Shown here piece by piece: positions 21,240 to 26,688 of a stretch of DNA of 60,451 nt (position 1 is its first letter; each line of letters begins with the position of its first letter). The stretch is from the IMG/VR virus record IMGVR_UViG_3300043449_000416, positions 1-60,451 of that record. The stretch is one strand, 5' to 3'. Below the pieces are notes generated by a model. It ran no database searches. It had not been told where the DNA came from and saw only the letters and a program-made list of their open reading frames with translations. The stretch comes from a virus. A program made the position numbers and the translations under genes.

Positions 21240-21431
21240 TCAGTCCGCAATAAATCTTTTCTCTAGGTCCTTTACGTCATCGTACATGCGCTGGAGCGCC
21301 GTATATTCCCCGACGCTCCGGCAATAATCCTCATAGCTCTTGGCACCGCCCGTTGCGAGGTGGTGCTCAATGGCTGACTTCTGCTCGTTCAGACCGCGAA
21401 TCATAAAGGCAAAGATGGTATCTTCCATCAC
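21240..21431 (-). CDS. Hypothetical small protein (63 aa)
   Basis: ORF with 4-nt overlap to the portal stop. Confidence 0.35.
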   Translation of the reverse strand: MMEDTIFAFMIRGLNEQKSAIEHHLATGGAKSYEDYCRSVGEYTALQRMYDDVKDLEKRFIAD

Positions 21432-23917
21432 TGGCCCCCAGCGTTAGGCGATTTGCGCGCTTGGAGCAGCCGTGCCGCCTCGATGGCGAGGCGCGTGCCA
21501 TCCATCTGAGCTTTGACATTCTCTTTCGCAGCGTCAGTGGCAAGCTTTGCCATGGTGTTTGCCGCGGATCGGTCGTTCTCGCTCTCGACACGCTCCTGCT
21601 GGATGTAGAGGTTTCCAGCGCTGGTGGCGGCGCTGACCTGCAGTTTCTTGTTGTCGAAGTCGATCTTGTGCTGCAGTTCTTTCTCTTTGATGTCCAACTC
21701 GCGCATCTGGATGATAGTGAGCGGGTCCTGTGCCTGCTGCTCTGCCGTAGCGGCCTGCTGCTCTGCCTGATTCTTGTTGAACAGCTTGGCTGCGGCCTGA
21801 GCAACCATACGGGACAGCTGCACCTCGACTTCCTCGGGCAGCGGCTCGCCCTCGGGCGGCAGCGGAACACCGAGGTTCATCTCGATCTCTTTGCGATACT
21901 GATAGGCAACGTGCTCGGTAATATGCGCCATGGCAGCCCCTTGAATAGCCTGCGCGAAGGGCGACTGGCCGACCATCTGAGCAATCTTCGGGTCCTGCAT
22001 CGCGGCCATGTGGGCAGCAATATGTGCTTCGTGGTCTTGGTAGAGGAACGCTTTGACAGGGGACTGCTGCAACAGCGCCATATTCTCGGCCACTGGGTCC
22101 ATGGGCTTCATATCTGCCGGAGACTTAATGATGTCCTTAGCGTCTTGGATGCCCAGCACCTCGAGCATCTGTGAGTGCAGCTTGCCCATATCGTACAGCT
22201 GCGGAGCCTGCTGTGATAACTGCAGCGCGGCCTGATACTGCATGATCCGCTGCGCCATGGTGGCGGCGTTAGGATCAGATACCGGGATTATATCCACGCG
22301 CCCATCAAAGTCCTCGATGCGGTTGAAGTCACCGTCCATCTCGTAGGCATACTGCTCTGGCATGTAGTCATGCACGATCCGCGCGAGGATGCGTAGTTCC
22401 TGCTTCATAGCTGCGTGCAGGCGGGCTTGAACACCCGACATAACCTTCAAACTGCGCTCGAGCAGGGCGAGCGTGGTACCCACCGGTGCGTTTGCACTCA
22501 TGTCACCCACTTGGATGTCAGCCACGGAGCCGATGCGACGGCCTTCCTCAACCACGTTACCCAGCAGGGTATACAGGACGCTCGATGGCTCTTTGTACGG
22601 CATCGGGAACAGGCTCTCGCGGAGCGTACCTCCCGTCACGTCAGCGTCTCTCCACTCACCGGGCATCAGCGGGGTGTTGTCACCCTTGATGCGCAGGCTC
22701 CGGGCCTTGAGGCCCGCTGGGAGGTTAGACAGGGTGCCCGCATCGATGAGCTGCCGCAGGATTGACGTCGCAGACTTAGCCAGACCGCCGATCAGATGAA
22801 TTAGTCCCGTACCGTAGAACCCCATACCCGGCAGGTAGGGGTAGTGGGTGAAGTGCATCAGCTTGCGCTTCTTCGCGTCATCTTCCTTCCAGTTACGGCG
22901 GATAGCGAGAACAGTCCGAGAGGTCTTGTCGATTGTGATGACGTAAGGCCGTGCCACGCCATCCTCATCCTCGAACGGCTCCGGCAGGTCGATGTCCACG
23001 TGCATTTCCAAGAGTGTACGGCGCGGATCATCCTCGAATGTCTGCTCCTCCCCCGCCAGCTCGGCGTATTTCTCCTCGATGTCGGTGAGGTCTTTCTCCG
23101 CATCAGGCAGCTCGACATCGCGGTAGAAGCCAACAACCTGCAGCTCACGGACCTCATTGTCGGTCTTCTTCATCACATGTGTGAACCGTGGGCAGACGCG
23201 CAGGTTAGACGCGCCGTAGGAGACCACGAGGTCCTCAGCAGGAACAAAAATGGATGAGGGGAGCTCTGTGATGGGATCGTAGTATGTCTTCTTGAACGCT
23301 GACCCGGCCAGCGGGAGGCGGAACAGCATCAGCTCCATCTCGTCGCGGTAGTCCGGCATCTCCTCAGTGATGAGGTAGTTCATCTCATTCTGGACGCGGT
23401 TAGCTTGGTCAGCCTTCTCGGGGGTAAGTTTACCCATGATCTTTGTCCGTACCGGCCCCGAGGCGGGCATCAGCTCGCTCATTGCCTGCGCTTGGAACCG
23501 CACCACGGCCTCGGTCAGCATCGGGTGATAGACACCGGAGGCACCGGCCCAAGGCTGCGTGCGGTCCTCGATCTTCATCCCCAGCAAGTCCAAGCCGGTA
23601 ATATAGGCCGACGCCCAGTCCTTGCGGCTCTCACGATCAGAGAGAAAAGATCCAACCAGCTCACTGGCGATACTCTCAAGCTCCCCATCGTCAATGATTT
23701 CGGCGAGGTTGGTGTCGTGGGCGGTCATGTCCGCGCCCGTATCGTCCTCACCATCGCCGAAGTCGACTAGGACCTCACCGGTATCCGCATCGATTTGGAT
23801 TGATGGGTCTTCTTCCGTCGCGATGGATACTTCAATCTCGGTATCGTCCTGCGGCCCGAACTCGAACGGCGTCATCGGCTTCTCGATTGCCATGGCATAT
23901 CCCCTGTAGGTCTCCAC
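21428..23917 (-). CDS. Putative portal protein
   Basis: 829-aa ORF immediately downstream of the terminase gene; size and position are typical of portals. Confidence 0.55.
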   Translation of the reverse strand: METYRGYAMAIEKPMTPFEFGPQDDTEIEVSIATEEDPSIQIDADTGEVLVDFGDGEDDTGADMTAHDTNLAEIIDDGELESIASELVGSFLSDRESRKDWASAYITGLDLLGMKIEDRTQPWAGASGVYHPMLTEAVVRFQAQAMSELMPASGPVRTKIMGKLTPEKADQANRVQNEMNYLITEEMPDYRDEMELMLFRLPLAGSAFKKTYYDPITELPSSIFVPAEDLVVSYGASNLRVCPRFTHVMKKTDNEVRELQVVGFYRDVELPDAEKDLTDIEEKYAELAGEEQTFEDDPRRTLLEMHVDIDLPEPFEDEDGVARPYVITIDKTSRTVLAIRRNWKEDDAKKRKLMHFTHYPYLPGMGFYGTGLIHLIGGLAKSATSILRQLIDAGTLSNLPAGLKARSLRIKGDNTPLMPGEWRDADVTGGTLRESLFPMPYKEPSSVLYTLLGNVVEEGRRIGSVADIQVGDMSANAPVGTTLALLERSLKVMSGVQARLHAAMKQELRILARIVHDYMPEQYAYEMDGDFNRIEDFDGRVDIIPVSDPNAATMAQRIMQYQAALQLSQQAPQLYDMGKLHSQMLEVLGIQDAKDIIKSPADMKPMDPVAENMALLQQSPVKAFLYQDHEAHIAAHMAAMQDPKIAQMVGQSPFAQAIQGAAMAHITEHVAYQYRKEIEMNLGVPLPPEGEPLPEEVEVQLSRMVAQAAAKLFNKNQAEQQAATAEQQAQDPLTIIQMRELDIKEKELQHKIDFDNKKLQVSAATSAGNLYIQQERVESENDRSAANTMAKLATDAAKENVKAQMDGTRLAIEAARLLQARKSPNAGGQ

Positions 23918-24201
23918 GAGACCTTAGCACGAGGTGTTAAAGCTCGCAATGTAGTTGCGAGGGGCGCTAGATTTCTATTGATGAGCCGTAGCGCAGTCTA
24001 ATCAATTTCGACCAAAGATACCGTTCCGCTTTTTTGATGCAGTTGTGTATATGCGCCCCCGCAGTCCTTCGTACCGCTATGCTACGATGAATACAATACT
24101 CTTCAATAAAAAAACCCGGCGGGAGAGGACCGCCGGGCTAGTTCCAAGGAGCCAACGCATAAGGAGGAGAAAACGTTGACGCGAATAGTGTAGCACGGGC
24201 T

Positions 24202-26688
24202 CTAGTAGTAATCAACTTTTCTTCTGTATGGCAGCTCTTCATCCAGCTCATCTGTCGGCAGGCGGATGAACCCCCCTTGGCGGAACCGCATCAGGGCCAT
24301 TATTGTCGTGTCGCAGTTGTGGACCAGCACACCGTTAGCGTAGTAGCAGTGAGTGTCAGCTACCGTCAGGTTGTATACTGGCTTTTTCTCTTCTCCTACG
24401 TTTATACTGTCTACTTGCGCACGTGTTGCCGCAAAGTTCGGCCCGGCCAGAAGACGATAGAAACTGCGTACTGCACTCCTTACAGGTACGGATAACCGGG
24501 TTTTCAGCCTGCTCTTTGAGCTTTTTCTCTCTAGCCTCACGGGCGGCCCCACCAAGTTTAAGGTACTTAGCTGTGCGATCTCTGTGCCAAGCTCTACCTT
24601 CCTCTGAACGGTGCCACTCGCTCGCCTTGCCACGAACCCTGTTAAGCAGGGCAAGTTGCTCGGGGCTTCTCGCTCTAATGCTGCGCTCTTCGGAGTGGCG
24701 TCTGCAGTGCTCTTCGCGAGATACGCACTCAAGGTTAGTGACGCCGTTGTTATCCCAATTTCCGTCCTTGTGGTGAACCTCCCAGCCGTCTGGAATAGGC
24801 CCATTGTGGAACTCCCACACAGCGCGGTGCAAGTTGAACCCTCCGGCTCGCTGAAAATACTTCCGAAGAGACGCTCTCGGAGAGTTCGGATAGCGGTTGT
24901 AAGTGTAGCCGTTGAACACAACAGACTCCGTGTGAACTTCTGGTTTAGTCGGCCACGGCATTTGCGCCCCCATTGCTTGGTCACCTTTACTGTATCAGTC
25001 ACAGTAATAGTGTCAAGACGCTTCCACCCGCACGTTGTGGCGATTGGGTGGTTCCCGGTGCCTTCCAGAGTGTGGCCTCCAGCGCGCAGAATAAATGTAT
25101 TTCGCACCCCTGTGCAACCTGCGGCCTGTACCACTTTCGCCCCCGCTGGCGTTTTAACGACGTCCCCGATCTTTATTGTTTCAATAGGTTGCTCTATTCC
25201 ATCAGCCATCAGAACTTGCGTTCCGGCTACAAAACAGTGGTCGTCGTTTTCAGCGAACGGGAATCCTGCAACTTCCTCGACCAGCTCCTCTGCCCACCGT
25301 TTAGGCGGCACCCAGACCAGCCCCGAGGAGATGATATCAGACACAGAGTTCAGACGCGCCATCTTGCTATTCGGGTTGTTTACCGAGCCCCTGACAGGGG
25401 TGTACTCCTGCACCATGAGCCCCGAGCGGCGCATCTCCTGATACAACGGCGTCCCCGAACTCTTTTTCTCGACGATGAACACGTCGGGTTCCCACTGCTG
25501 ATACTCCTCCAGAGCCAACGCTTTGAGCTCTGGAAACTCCATGCGCCGCTTGATGGCATTGAGCAGGATGATCTGGTGCATGTTCTCCTCGTCATTGAAG
25601 AACACTCCCCACGTTGTCAGAGACGTGAAGTCAGCCCGGTTGTGGGCTTCTGCAGCGGCGTCGAGAGACATGATGATATACTCTACAGCCGGTGGGTCGT
25701 CGTCTGGCCACAGCCGCCACCAATCTCTCTTGATTATGGCAGCTTCTTCGCCCGTCGGATTCTGCTGATACTGCGCGTTCCACTGGAACACCGGCATGGA
25801 GGCCTTGGTCCGCAGCAGTGCTTGTAGATCAAAAAACTCAGGCCAGAGGGCTCTTTGAATTATATTTTCTTCACCAGTGACGTTGTCTTTCTGGACTACG
25901 TCTAAAATAGCCGGAAACTCCACCACCTCATATTGGTCGGAGTTCTCGTTGTTGGCCATATCTTGAATAAGGCGTCCTGTTAGATCTTTTTTATGCCATC
26001 TTGTATGGACCACGGCCACGCGCCCCCCGGGCATCAGACGCGTCCGGGCCCCGAAGGCGAACCATTCGTAAGCTTTGTCGAATGCCGTGAAGTTTCCGTT
26101 CAAGATATCCTGCTCGGAGTGCGGGTCGTCGACGAGCAGCAGGTCAGCGCCGCGGCCCGCGAGGGCCGATCCCACGCCCGTGGCGTAAAACTCGCATCCT
26201 GTGGTCGTGTTCCAGCGCCCAGCCGACTTGCTGTCAGAGGACAGCGCGAGGTTCGGGAAGACCTGCTGGTAGGGCTCAGAGTCGATGATATTCCGCACCT
26301 TCCGACCGAAATCGACGGCTAGGTCCGTCGTATGCGAGACCAACATGACCTTTTTCCCGGGGTTTCGACCGATGAACCATGCAGGATAGTAGGTTGAGAC
26401 GAGCTGAGACTTGCCGTGGCGGGGTGGGATGTTGACGCAGACCCTGTCTTTGTCCCCCCGCTCGATGTCCATGAGCTCATCCGCTAGAATTCTATGGTGT
26501 CGGCCCACCTTATAGGTACGGTCCATATACTTACAGAAGGCAATCAGGTCATCCTTGGCACCCTGCAGCGTGGCGCGCTTGTCCAACTCCTCGAGCATTT
26601 TCTCGATCTCGAGCAGTTCCTGCTCGTCGAGCATATCCACGCTCTTGAGGAGCGTTTCGAGCTCTGCTCGATTGAAGTCGGAGCTCAT
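24202..26688 (-). CDS. terL: Terminase large subunit, interrupted by an intein
   Basis: Walker A (IPPRHGKSQ), Walker B (ADLLLVDDPH) and a C-terminal nuclease region; intein blocks CFVAGTQVLMADG... (A), TGNHP (B) and ...YYANGVLVHN/CDTTI (F/G). Confidence 0.85.
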   Translation of the reverse strand: MSSDFNRAELETLLKSVDMLDEQELLEIEKMLEELDKRATLQGAKDDLIAFCKYMDRTYKVGRHHRILADELMDIERGDKDRVCVNIPPRHGKSQLVSTYYPAWFIGRNPGKKVMLVSHTTDLAVDFGRKVRNIIDSEPYQQVFPNLALSSDSKSAGRWNTTTGCEFYATGVGSALAGRGADLLLVDDPHSEQDILNGNFTAFDKAYEWFAFGARTRLMPGGRVAVVHTRWHKKDLTGRLIQDMANNENSDQYEVVEFPAILDVVQKDNVTGEENIIQRALWPEFFDLQALLRTKASMPVFQWNAQYQQNPTGEEAAIIKRDWWRLWPDDDPPAVEYIIMSLDAAAEAHNRADFTSLTTWGVFFNDEENMHQIILLNAIKRRMEFPELKALALEEYQQWEPDVFIVEKKSSGTPLYQEMRRSGLMVQEYTPVRGSVNNPNSKMARLNSVSDIISSGLVWVPPKRWAEELVEEVAGFPFAENDDHCFVAGTQVLMADGIEQPIETIKIGDVVKTPAGAKVVQAAGCTGVRNTFILRAGGHTLEGTGNHPIATTCGWKRLDTITVTDTVKVTKQWGRKCRGRLNQKFTRSLLCSTATLTTAIRTLRERLFGSIFSEPEGSTCTALCGSSTMGLFQTAGRFTTRTEIGITTASLTLSAYLAKSTADATPKSAALEREAPSNLPCLTGFVARRASGTVQRKVELGTEIAQLSTLNLVGPPVRLERKSSKSRLKTRLSVPVRSAVRSFYRLLAGPNFAATRAQVDSINVGEEKKPVYNLTVADTHCYYANGVLVHNCDTTIMALMRFRQGGFIRLPTDELDEELPYRRKVDYY
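24316..25236 (-). other. Intein within terL (aa 485-791 of the precursor)
   Basis: N-terminal Cys after ...FAENDDH, C-terminal HN followed by +1 Cys; boundaries computed from the ORF. Confidence 0.75.
24356..24973 (-). CDS. HNH endonuclease ORF nested inside the terL intein, in a different reading frame
   Basis: HRAVWEFHNGPIPDGWEVHHKDGNWDNNGVTNLECVSREEHCRRH is an unambiguous HNH motif; the ORF exactly fills the gap between the intein N- and C-terminal splicing blocks and has a GGTGA-like RBS upstream of its ATG. Confidence 0.7.
   Translation of the reverse strand: MGAQMPWPTKPEVHTESVVFNGYTYNRYPNSPRASLRKYFQRAGGFNLHRAVWEFHNGPIPDGWEVHHKDGNWDNNGVTNLECVSREEHCRRHSEERSIRARSPEQLALLNRVRGKASEWHRSEEGRAWHRDRTAKYLKLGGAAREAREKKLKEQAENPVIRTCKECSTQFLSSSGRAELCGNTCASRQYKRRRREKASIQPDGS

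What the first reader, a model, noticed from the sequence alone, without database searches (positions are those of the whole stretch)
24316..25236. terL intein carries its HNH endonuclease in a different reading frame from the splicing domains
The intein N-terminal (blocks A/B) and C-terminal (blocks F/G) splicing blocks are in the terL frame, but the roughly 190 codons between them read as non-protein-like sequence in that frame while still being stop-free. A clear HNH endonuclease (HRAVWEFHNG...HHKDGNWDNNGVTNLE...H) is encoded in another frame (24356..24973), exactly filling the gap where an in-frame homing-endonuclease domain normally sits, with its own ATG and a GGTGA-like RBS. Canonical inteins have the endonuclease domain in frame. 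This looks like either an endonuclease gene translated independently from within a mini-intein-like element, or a frameshift-dependent arrangement.
Basis: partly seen in the sequence, partly recalled or inferred. Interest (0 to 1): 0.85.

Follow-up and report, generated by a model that had tools for sequence, protein, structure and literature searches.

The report
Intein with overlapping out-of-frame HNH gene
The phage's terminase gene carries a self-splicing intein whose homing endonuclease is a separate gene written over the intein's middle in the -1 reading frame; the layout is real and found across many phages, and its general type was first described in 1998.

Summary
terL (24202..26688, minus strand) contains a 307-codon class-1 intein (24316..25236). 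A 205-codon ORF (24356..24973) in the -1/+2 frame is an HNH_3 endonuclease (Pfam E=3e-16, AF2 pLDDT 93, closest solved structure I-HmuI). The same DNA read in the terL frame is stop-free, but residues 89-267 are predicted unstructured (pLDDT about 32).

It is not a sequencing artefact. A 91%-identical relative from another metagenome has the same layout with no indels. So do 74 further viral loci, four of them GenBank phages, and 33 bacterial or archaeal genome contigs. In all 108 loci the frame offset is the same, and I found no in-frame version.

Substitutions in nine close pairs show purifying selection on the HNH frame (333 synonymous / 226 non-synonymous) and not on the terL frame (105/453). 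Most nested ORFs have their own start codon, many with a Shine-Dalgarno-like motif just upstream, directly after an HNH-frame stop, and slippery heptamers are not conserved. Independent initiation is therefore favoured over frameshifting.

Free-standing relatives sit next to intein-less terL genes, and a related phage has a mini-intein at the same site.

Out-of-frame intein endonucleases were already described (Gorbalenya 1998; Gosselin 2025; Phillips 2026), but I found no report of this nuclease type, site or breadth.

The parts
24202..26688 (-). terL precursor gene (828 codons plus stop), a single uninterrupted ORF
   Evidence: Pfam Terminase_6N/6C and PHROG terminase large subunit.
25237..26688 (-). 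N-extein (TerL residues 1-484: ATPase and most of the RNaseH-like nuclease domain), ending ...FAENDDH
   Evidence: The spliced TerL is 43-44% identical to intein-less TerL of Pelagibacter phages HTVC027P and HTVC023P.
24316..25236 (-). Intein, 307 codons, in the terL frame (C1 ... HN, followed by a +1 Cys)
   Evidence: Pfam Intein_splicing 36.5 bits against a cut-off of 35.8 for the excised intein.
24973..25236 (-). N-terminal splicing domain (intein residues 1-88; block A C1, block B TGNH)
   Evidence: AF2 pLDDT 76-94. Invariant columns in alignment A3.
24436..24972 (-). Intein linker read in the terL frame (residues 89-267): stop-free but not protein-like
   Evidence: AF2 pLDDT about 30-45. 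Most substitutions against L006 fall on terL codon position 2. Pooled terL-frame counts are 105 synonymous / 453 non-synonymous.
24316..24435 (-). C-terminal splicing domain (residues 268-307; blocks F and G, VYNLTV...NGVLVHN)
   Evidence: AF2 pLDDT about 90. Invariant columns in A3.
24356..24973 (-). Nested HNH endonuclease ORF in the -1/+2 frame. It has an I-HmuI-like HNH_3 core, an EWHRSEEGRxWH helix region and a CxxC...CxxxC zinc ribbon. The stop codon TGA at 24358..24356 lies inside block F.
24959..24961 (-). Probable true start codon of the HNH gene (second ATG, giving MPWPTKPEV...), preceded by GGGGG at 24971..24967
   Evidence: L006 has ACG at the first ATG. Homologues start M-x-[FW]-x-x-K about 42 codons before the LHR motif.
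24981..24987 (-). AAGGTGA Shine-Dalgarno-like motif, 7 nt before the first ATG (24973) (6 to the end of the GGTGA core)
   Evidence: Sequence. Comparable SD-like motifs occur in many nested relatives, strong ones (AGGAGG/GGAGG/AGGAG) in a subset.
24205..24315 (-). C-extein (CDTTIMALMRF...VDYY), followed by the stop at 24202..24204
24113..24139 (-). Intrinsic-terminator-like hairpin plus T run downstream of terL

Best explanation
This is a non-canonical intein. A mini-intein-type Hint splicing domain sits at the conserved catalytic Asp motif near the end of the TerL nuclease domain. Its homing endonuclease is not an in-frame domain. It is a complete I-HmuI-like HNH gene overlapping the intein's central linker in the -1 frame.

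Inferred mechanism:
1. Ribosomes reading terL straight through make a precursor in which about 180 residues of unselected, disordered sequence join the two splicing halves.
2. The Hint domain splices itself out and releases active TerL. This must happen, because terL is essential.
3. A minority of ribosomes initiate internally at the HNH gene's own Shine-Dalgarno-like motif and ATG on the same late mRNA. They make a free 201-205 aa endonuclease.
4. That endonuclease nicks or cuts intein-less terL alleles in co-infecting phages, and repair copies the intein plus HNH into them (homing).

Selection keeps the HNH frame functional and merely keeps the terL frame free of stop codons.

The likely origin is a terL-targeting free-standing HNH gene that entered a mini-intein once. 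All known copies share one frame offset.

Shown here: the anatomy, conservation, selection pattern, fold predictions and translation signals. Inferred only: splicing, internal initiation, nuclease activity and homing.
For: - Anatomy and domain calls.
- Same layout and same offset in 4 GenBank phages, 70 further IMG/VR loci and 33 bacterial or archaeal genome contigs. No locus has the other offset and none is in frame.
- L006, an independent metagenome contig, has a 921-nt intein with 65 substitutions and no indels.
- Stop avoidance: 75 of 75 nested loci have 0 host-frame stops and 3-36 in the third frame. Most free-standing relatives have 3-15 in the equivalent frame (one, L023, has none).
- Selection in 9 independent close pairs (559 differences): 337 fall on HNH codon position 3, against 138 and 84 on positions 1 and 2. 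HNH frame 333 synonymous / 226 non-synonymous; terL frame 105/453.
- Fold: HNH ORF pLDDT 93.4. Intein pLDDT about 90 in residues 1-88 and 268-307, and below 50 in residues 89-267.
- Closest structure: I-HmuI is the top match by Foldseek (probability 0.98) and by sequence profile (E=7e-4).
- Translation signals: start codons, many with SD-like motifs (AGGAGG, GGAGG, GAGG) 4-8 nt upstream, and an HNH-frame stop 0-10 codons upstream.
- Other states: mini-inteins at the same site, e.g. P0112, whose TerL is 62% identical to the window's extein. Free-standing relatives lie directly downstream of intein-less terL.
- Host TerLs belong to different Pfam terminase families, always with the intein at the end of the RNaseH-like domain.
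Against: - There is no expression, splicing or cleavage data.
- The window's own SD-like motifs are modest (AAGGTGA, GGGGG), and about a quarter to a third of relatives show no obvious SD-like motif.
- Evidence for active homing is only distributional. I made no extein/intein tree reconciliation.
- Foldseek E for I-HmuI is weak (0.03) and covers only the catalytic core.
- The single-origin idea rests on the constant offset, while free-standing and nested HNHs are interspersed by nearest-neighbour identity. The direction of those transitions is unresolved.
Confidence: 0.8

Rival explanations
1. The HNH is made by programmed -1 ribosomal frameshifting from the terL frame. The product would be an N-extein/N-intein/HNH fusion that terminates in block F, not an independently initiated protein.
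For: The offset is -1 in all 108 loci. The same offset is seen in the unrelated Affeca terL intein. A GGGGG run lies near the junction in the window.
Against: An HNH-frame stop lies 0-10 codons upstream of the start in nearly all loci, often the TGA created by the intein's GD codons. Several loci leave 0-1 codon of room. Only 9 of 75 loci have a canonical X_XXY_YYZ heptamer there, and the window has none. The RNA around the junction folds no better than shuffles, z = 0.5. Start codons, often with SD-like motifs, are conserved instead. Free-standing relatives begin at the same N-terminus.
Confidence: 0.04
2. It is a sequencing or assembly artefact. Two compensating indels would have shifted an ordinary in-frame HNH domain out of frame.
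Against: The same arrangement occurs in an independent 91% relative without indels, in isolate phage genomes and in more than 100 other loci. The HNH frame is closed by stops on both sides, 7 codons before the ATG and inside block F. No TerL-length in-frame relative appears among 107 database homologues or among the best 150 of 1,463 strong representatives.
Confidence: 0.005
3. The nested HNH is not, or not only, a selfish homing endonuclease. It could be a terminase-associated HNH that assists DNA packaging, like the HNH proteins encoded next to terminase genes in cos phages. Nesting it in terL would secure co-expression.
For: Free-standing relatives are always adjacent to terminase genes, between terL and portal or upstream of terS. 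The protein has zinc ribbons like the terminase-adjacent HNH nicking enzymes of PMC3592412 (abstract seen).
Against: The closest structural and sequence match is the homing endonuclease I-HmuI. Relatives of the window phage lack the HNH: L088 has a mini-intein with terL followed by portal after a 20-nt gap, and the Pelagibacter phages have intein-less TerL. The occurrence is patchy across unrelated terminase families, as expected of a mobile element. Adjacency to its target gene is also typical of free-standing homing endonucleases.
Confidence: 0.08
4. The nested ORF is a decaying relic. The intein persists vertically as an effective mini-intein, and the HNH is no longer expressed or active.
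For: Expression is unproven. Mini-intein alleles exist. The window's SD-like motif is weak.
Against: The ORF is intact in 108 loci, with invariant catalytic residues H67, H68, N76, N80 and H89 and zinc cysteines. There is a clear purifying-selection signature in the HNH frame and a pLDDT of 93. A relic would accumulate stops quickly, because only the terL frame needs to stay open.
Confidence: 0.05

Closest known systems
[quoted passage not shown] Gordonia phage Affeca gene 2
   Same: A same-strand HEN ORF nested between the splicing blocks in 'frame 3' (+2 offset, verified). The host frame is stop-free and unstructured. The host gene is terL. The proposed origin is invasion of an intein by a free-standing HEN.
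   Different: The nuclease family differs: Endonuclease VII-like there, I-HmuI-like HNH_3 with a zinc ribbon here. The insertion site differs: ATPase domain VLVM|C...SHN|TRWH in Affeca, against the end of the nuclease domain DDH|C...HN|CD here. That report is limited to PhagesDB actinophages and calls the type rare. This family spans phages of Proteobacteria, Firmicutes and Actinobacteria, CPR bacteria and archaeal contigs.
Cyanobacterial DnaX intein with an out-of-frame LAGLIDADG HE (Gorbalenya 1998 'Non-canonical inteins', as cited; Phillips et al., bioRxiv 10.64898/2026.09.14.751524)
   Same: An overlapping HE ORF inside an intein. The HE frame is under purifying selection while the host frame is relaxed. 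Mini-intein alleles coexist. A secondary invasion is proposed.
   Different: The nuclease is LAGLIDADG, not HNH. The host is a cellular dnaX gene, not phage terL. It is restricted to one phylum.
'Hidden' out-of-frame HNH in the ShiLan insertion of mycobacteriophage DNA methylases (Arsenault et al. 2025, PMC11855218)
   Same: An HNH endonuclease ORF overlaps a stop-free in-frame insertion in a phage gene. The question of how it is translated is the same.
   Different: ShiLan has no splicing domain and stays in the protein as a loop. No RBS was found there and leaderless initiation was proposed. Here a bona fide intein removes the insert, and SD-like motifs occur in many relatives.
Fractured genes / split inteins with a free-standing HEG between the halves (Dassa et al. 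2009, PMC2677866)
   Same: An independently translated endonuclease gene with its own control elements sits at the endonuclease slot of an intein. Their model has a HEG invading a mini-intein.
   Different: There the host gene is broken into two ORFs and spliced in trans. Here the host frame stays open through the HEG, so the intein is contiguous and cis-splicing.
I-HmuI (PDB 1U3E), intron-encoded HNH nicking homing endonuclease of Bacillus phage SPO1
   Same: It is the best structural and profile match to the HNH core, with the motif HR..-G.ipeG..VhHkDgn..NN...NL.
   Different: I-HmuI is intron-encoded and has a different C-terminal DNA-binding region. The window protein has the EWHRSEEGRxWH helices and zinc ribbon(s). 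The match is weak outside about 70-100 residues.

Membership tests
Class 1 intein (Hint fold) | N-terminal Cys/Ser nucleophile (block A) and block B TxxH | tested here: met
   C1 (CFVAGTQ) and T60-G-N-H63. T60 and H63 are invariant and C1 is nearly invariant (>=90%) in A3.
Class 1 intein (Hint fold) | C-terminal His-Asn followed by a +1 Cys/Ser/Thr (blocks F and G) | tested here: met
   ...VYNLTVADTHCYYANGVLVHN|C. The same junction is found in about 73 of 75 nested loci.
Class 1 intein (Hint fold) | Significant match to intein/Hint profiles and a Hint fold | tested here: met
   Pfam Intein_splicing scores 36.5 bits (cut-off 35.8) on the excised intein, with Vint, Hint_2 and Hom_end_hint below their cut-offs. 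AF2 gives pLDDT about 90 and all-beta structure for residues 1-88 and 268-307. I did not run a fold search on this model.
Class 1 intein (Hint fold) | Protein splicing activity | not testable with these tools
   Inferred from the essentiality of TerL and the intact catalytic residues.
Canonical bifunctional intein | Homing endonuclease domain encoded in frame between blocks B and F | tested here: not met
   The in-frame residues 89-267 have no Pfam hit and pLDDT below 50. The HNH is at offset +2.
Non-canonical intein with an overlapping out-of-frame HEN (Gorbalenya 1998; Gosselin 2025) | A complete HEN ORF nested between the splicing blocks in another frame, with the host frame stop-free | tested here: met
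Non-canonical intein with an overlapping out-of-frame HEN (Gorbalenya 1998; Gosselin 2025) | HEN frame under purifying selection, host frame relaxed in the overlap | tested here: met
Non-canonical intein with an overlapping out-of-frame HEN (Gorbalenya 1998; Gosselin 2025) | Evidence of mobility (patchy distribution, presence in divergent exteins) | tested here: inconclusive
   The element occurs in Terminase_3, Terminase_6 and T7-type TerLs across phyla, and relatives with intein-less or mini-intein alleles exist. No phylogenetic incongruence test was done.
HNH_3 / I-HmuI-like His-Me finger endonuclease | Profile match above the curated threshold | tested here: met
   PF13392: 59.1 bits against a cut-off of 24.8, E=3.3e-16. 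PHROG HNH families.
HNH_3 / I-HmuI-like His-Me finger endonuclease | Conserved beta-beta-alpha-metal catalytic residues (HH...N...N...H) | tested here: met
   H67, H68, N76, N80 and H89 are invariant in 73 sequences. They align with the I-HmuI core. The model is confident.
HNH_3 / I-HmuI-like His-Me finger endonuclease | Site-specific DNA nicking or cleavage at the homing site | not testable with these tools
   -
Fractured gene / split intein (Dassa 2009) | Host gene split into two separately translated ORFs flanking the HEG | tested here: not met
   terL is one 828-codon ORF. The host frame is open in all 75 nested viral loci.
Programmed -1 ribosomal frameshift | Conserved slippery heptamer in the zero frame with a downstream stimulatory structure, and an open -1 frame upstream of the shift site | tested here: not met
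   The window has no heptamer and only 9 of 75 loci have one. Fold z-score is 0.5. A -1 frame stop lies immediately upstream.

The most novel reading that the evidence does not exclude
The -1 frame nested HNH in the terL nuclease-site intein could be a stable, ancient, cross-domain third architecture of inteins, not a transient evolutionary accident. It would then sit beside in-frame bifunctional inteins and split or fractured inteins, with a single origin. The overlap itself could be adaptive. It would tie endonuclease synthesis to late terL mRNA and throttle it through competition with terL-frame ribosomes. It would also make the HEG undeletable without precise excision. The family could also shuttle repeatedly between nested and free-standing (terL-adjacent) states, giving a natural series for testing how inteins acquire endonucleases.
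Probability: 0.3. Interest if true: 0.7.

Novelty: new member of a known kind. Interest (0 to 1): 0.5.

Why it matters
- **Annotation.** It shows that the "junk" middle of many annotated phage terminase inteins is really a second, overlapping gene that standard gene callers miss. The GenBank records of Highwayman, TJE1, phiCDHM19 and LS06-2018-MD07 annotate only terL.
- **Family size.** With 108 loci here, it is much larger than the out-of-frame intein endonuclease families in the papers found, which their authors call rare.
- **Origin of intein-endonuclease partnerships.** The same HNH family also occurs free-standing next to intein-less terL, and mini-inteins occupy the same site. The three states of the "free-standing HEG invades a mini-intein" model are therefore all available for experiment, the nested and mini-intein states within related phages.
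- **Overlapping genes.** It is a clean natural case of dual coding in which one frame is selected for protein function and the other only for the absence of stops.

Tried and rejected
- **Near-identical GenBank phages.** Megablast of terL against GenBank phages found nothing. The phage is only distantly related to isolates; the best TerL match is 43-44%, to Pelagibacter phages.
- **Paired-indel artefact.** Rejected.
- **-1 frameshifting.** Rejected as the general mechanism.
- **Antisense gene.** The long plus-strand ORFs 24611..25441 and 24973..25827 have no Pfam hits and are ordinary for a 55.6% GC genome.
- **Internal promoter.** A sigma-70-like TTGACA-16-TACAGT sits just upstream of the HNH start (25016..24989). 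It is the only hit in 3.6 kb against 1.7 expected, and it overlaps conserved intein codons, so I do not count it as evidence.
- **Same family as the published actinophage case.** No. Affeca has an Endonuclease VII-like nuclease at a different terL site.
- **In-frame relatives.** None among 107 homologues (144-338 aa) or among the best 150 of 1,463 strong representatives. The 290-310 aa hits are tandem HNH-module duplications or upstream wrong-frame extensions, not Hint fusions.
- **Literature.** Searches for TJE1 plus intein, and for overlapping HNH in large-terminase inteins, returned no description of this family. The library is incomplete, so absence there is not proof.
Full report

Yes.
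- The minus strand carries one 828-codon ORF, 24202..26688. It has Terminase_6N/6C domains and intein/Hint matches, and it hits PHROG terminase large subunit.
- The intein runs from CFVAGTQ to NGVLVHN and is followed by a Cys. That is 307 codons, exactly window 25236..24316.
- Inside it, at offset +2 (= -1) from terL, lies a 205-codon ORF at 24973..24356. It matches Pfam HNH_3 at E=3.3e-16, 59.1 bits against a cut-off of 24.8, and several PHROG HNH endonuclease families.
- The terL frame has no stop across the ORF. The third same-strand frame has 18 stops.
- Long antisense ORFs have no domain hits.

**2. Is it an artefact or chance?**

No.
- tblastn of the HNH ORF against GenBank phages landed inside the annotated terL genes of four phages: Acinetobacter phage Highwayman, Tetrasphaera phage TJE1, Clostridium phage phiCDHM19 (and a hit in phiCD119 annotated only as a hypothetical protein, not examined further) and a Rhodobacteraceae phage. 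In all four the HNH is at the same +2 offset, and terL reads through without a stop, even at 31% GC.
- A scan of IMG/VR found at least 572 relatives. Of the best 80 loci, 70 have the HNH nested in a long host-frame ORF (mostly 700-1200 codons where the contig is complete), always at that offset.
- A scan of bacterial and archaeal genome contigs added 33 nested cases, again only at that offset. They include CPR bacteria, Bacteroidota, Nostoc, Corynebacterium, a Thermoplasmatales chromosome, and Thor- and Woesearchaeota bins.
- The closest relative, L006, comes from another metagenome and is 91% identical in the HNH. Its intein is the same 921 nt, with 65 substitutions and no indels.
- Synonymous-codon shuffles give the window a 1.7% chance of zero host-frame stops, even using its own already adapted codon usage. 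All 75 nested loci have zero, and most free-standing relatives carry 3-15.

**3. Which frame is the protein?**

In the overlap, the HNH frame.
- Against L006, 22 of 42 differences fall on terL codon position 2, which is HNH position 3.
- Nine independent close pairs were pooled, giving 559 differences. By HNH codon position they split 138 / 84 / 337.
  - HNH frame: 333 synonymous, 226 non-synonymous.
  - terL frame: 105 synonymous, 453 non-synonymous.
- AlphaFold2 gives the HNH ORF a mean pLDDT of 93.4.
- The intein read in the terL frame scores about 90 for residues 1-88 and 268-307, but about 32 for residues 89-267.
- The best solved-structure match of the HNH model is the homing endonuclease I-HmuI. 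Foldseek gives probability 0.98 at E=0.03, and a profile search of PDB sequences gives E=7e-4.
- The catalytic residues H67, H68, N76, N80 and H89 and four zinc-ribbon cysteines are invariant in 73 homologues.

**4. How is the HNH made?**

Most likely by independent initiation.
- Most nested ORFs have an ATG, occasionally GTG or TTG, about 38-48 codons before the LHR motif.
- Many have a Shine-Dalgarno-like motif (AGGAGG, GGAGG, GAGG) 4-8 nt upstream; about a quarter to a third of them show none.
- In most loci an HNH-frame stop lies only 0-10 codons upstream. It is often the TGA produced by the intein's GD codons.
- Free-standing relatives start at the homologous N-terminus.
- In the window, the homologous start is the second ATG (24961, giving MPWPTKPEV), preceded by GGGGG. 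L006 has ACG at the first ATG.
- Canonical slippery heptamers occur in only 9 of 75 loci, and not in the window.
- The junction RNA is not unusually structured, z = 0.5.
- The HNH stop lies 31-85 nt (median 55, window 40) before the intein's end, inside block F. The ORF is therefore wholly nested.

**5. Context and origin**

- Host TerLs belong to Terminase_3/3C, Terminase_6N/6C and T7-type families. The intein always sits at the end of the RNaseH-like nuclease domain, D-[DH]-x|C ... [HS]N|C-D.
- Free-standing relatives of the HNH lie directly downstream of intein-less terL and before portal (L009, L010, L017, L018, L023, L038, L057, L082, L085), or upstream of terS (phage BP10).
- Free-standing and nested HNHs are interspersed by nearest-neighbour identity.
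- Mini-inteins occupy the same site in P0112, P0113 and P0114. P0112's phage is related to the window phage: TerL extein 62% and portal 51% identical. Its terL is followed by portal after only 20 nt.
- The window's spliced TerL is 43-44% identical to intein-less TerLs of Pelagibacter phages HTVC027P and HTVC023P.
- These states fit the model in which a terL-targeting free-standing HEG entered a mini-intein (Dassa 2009; Gosselin 2025). The invariant offset suggests this happened once.
- No in-frame version was found among 107 homologues or among the best 150 of 1,463 strong representatives.

**6. What is known**

- Inteins whose endonuclease is encoded in another frame or strand were described by Gorbalenya (1998, as cited).
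- They were revisited for the cyanobacterial DnaX intein, which has an out-of-frame LAGLIDADG.
- Gosselin et al. (2025) reported "frame 3" endonuclease VII-like HENs in actinophage terL inteins and called them rare.
- I checked their example, Gordonia phage Affeca. It has the same offset, but a different nuclease family and a different terL site.
- A hidden out-of-frame HNH without an intein exists in mycobacteriophage methylases.
- I found no description of the present HNH_3 / terL nuclease-site family.

**7. Verdict**

The frameshift alternative and the artefact explanation are rejected.

It is a new member of a known kind, with a new nuclease type and a new insertion site, and it turns out to be unexpectedly widespread. 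I score interest as moderate at 0.5. The principle is published, but the family's size, its strict frame conservation, and the coexistence of free-standing, mini-intein and nested states make it a useful model.

Noticed in passing
window 24113..24139 (-): A GC-rich hairpin followed by TTTTTTT lies directly downstream of the terL stop, in the 284-nt gap before portal (21428..23917). It looks like an intrinsic terminator between terL and portal.
   Followed up: no
window 24989..25016 (-): A sigma-70-like TTGACA-16 nt-(TG)TACAGT lies inside the intein, ending 16 nt before the first HNH ATG. It was the only hit in 3.6 kb against 1.7 expected, and it overlaps conserved intein codons (W-x-R-L-D-T). 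It could be an internal promoter or a coincidence.
   Followed up: partly
L009, L010, L017, L018, L023, L038, L057, L082, L085; L003 (phage BP10): Free-standing members of the same HNH family sit immediately downstream of intein-less terL and before portal. In BP10 the gene is upstream of terS. The nuclease family is tied to terminase genes even when it is not nested.
   Followed up: partly
L016 (602..3745), L056 (2..3625); also L089, L111, L127, L149/L150: Some host TerL ORFs are 1000-1330 codons. L016 carries a second intein in the ATPase domain, and L056 has a LAGLIDADG_3 hit far upstream of this intein that may mark a second one, in addition to the nuclease-site intein with the nested HNH.
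   Followed up: partly
L008, L020, L021: These nested-HNH inteins end ...LVQN|T instead of ...LVHN|C. They have Gln in place of the penultimate His and a +1 Thr, a non-standard C-terminal junction.
   Followed up: no
L094 (CP070724.1, Thermoplasmatales chromosome), L102 (Thorarchaeota), L106 and L130 (Woesearchaeota), L127: The nested arrangement also occurs on contigs assigned to archaea. If the binning is right, the element crosses domains through archaeal viruses or proviruses.
   Followed up: no
P0120 (1662 aa), P0125 (1134 aa): Two very long proteins match the C-terminal zinc-ribbon part of the HNH profile 19-22 times in tandem. I could not explain these repeat proteins.
   Followed up: no
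P0123, P0126, P0127, P0132, P0124: Some free-standing relatives carry two tandem copies of the N-terminal HNH module.
   Followed up: no
L086 (Gordonia phage Affeca, 514..2901): [quoted passage not shown] With only two independent cases this may be coincidence.
   Followed up: partly
L001, L002, L004, L005 (GenBank records OZ038341, HQ225832, LK985322, OP947163): The public annotations list only a long terminase large subunit CDS. The nested HNH gene is not annotated in any of them.
   Followed up: yes
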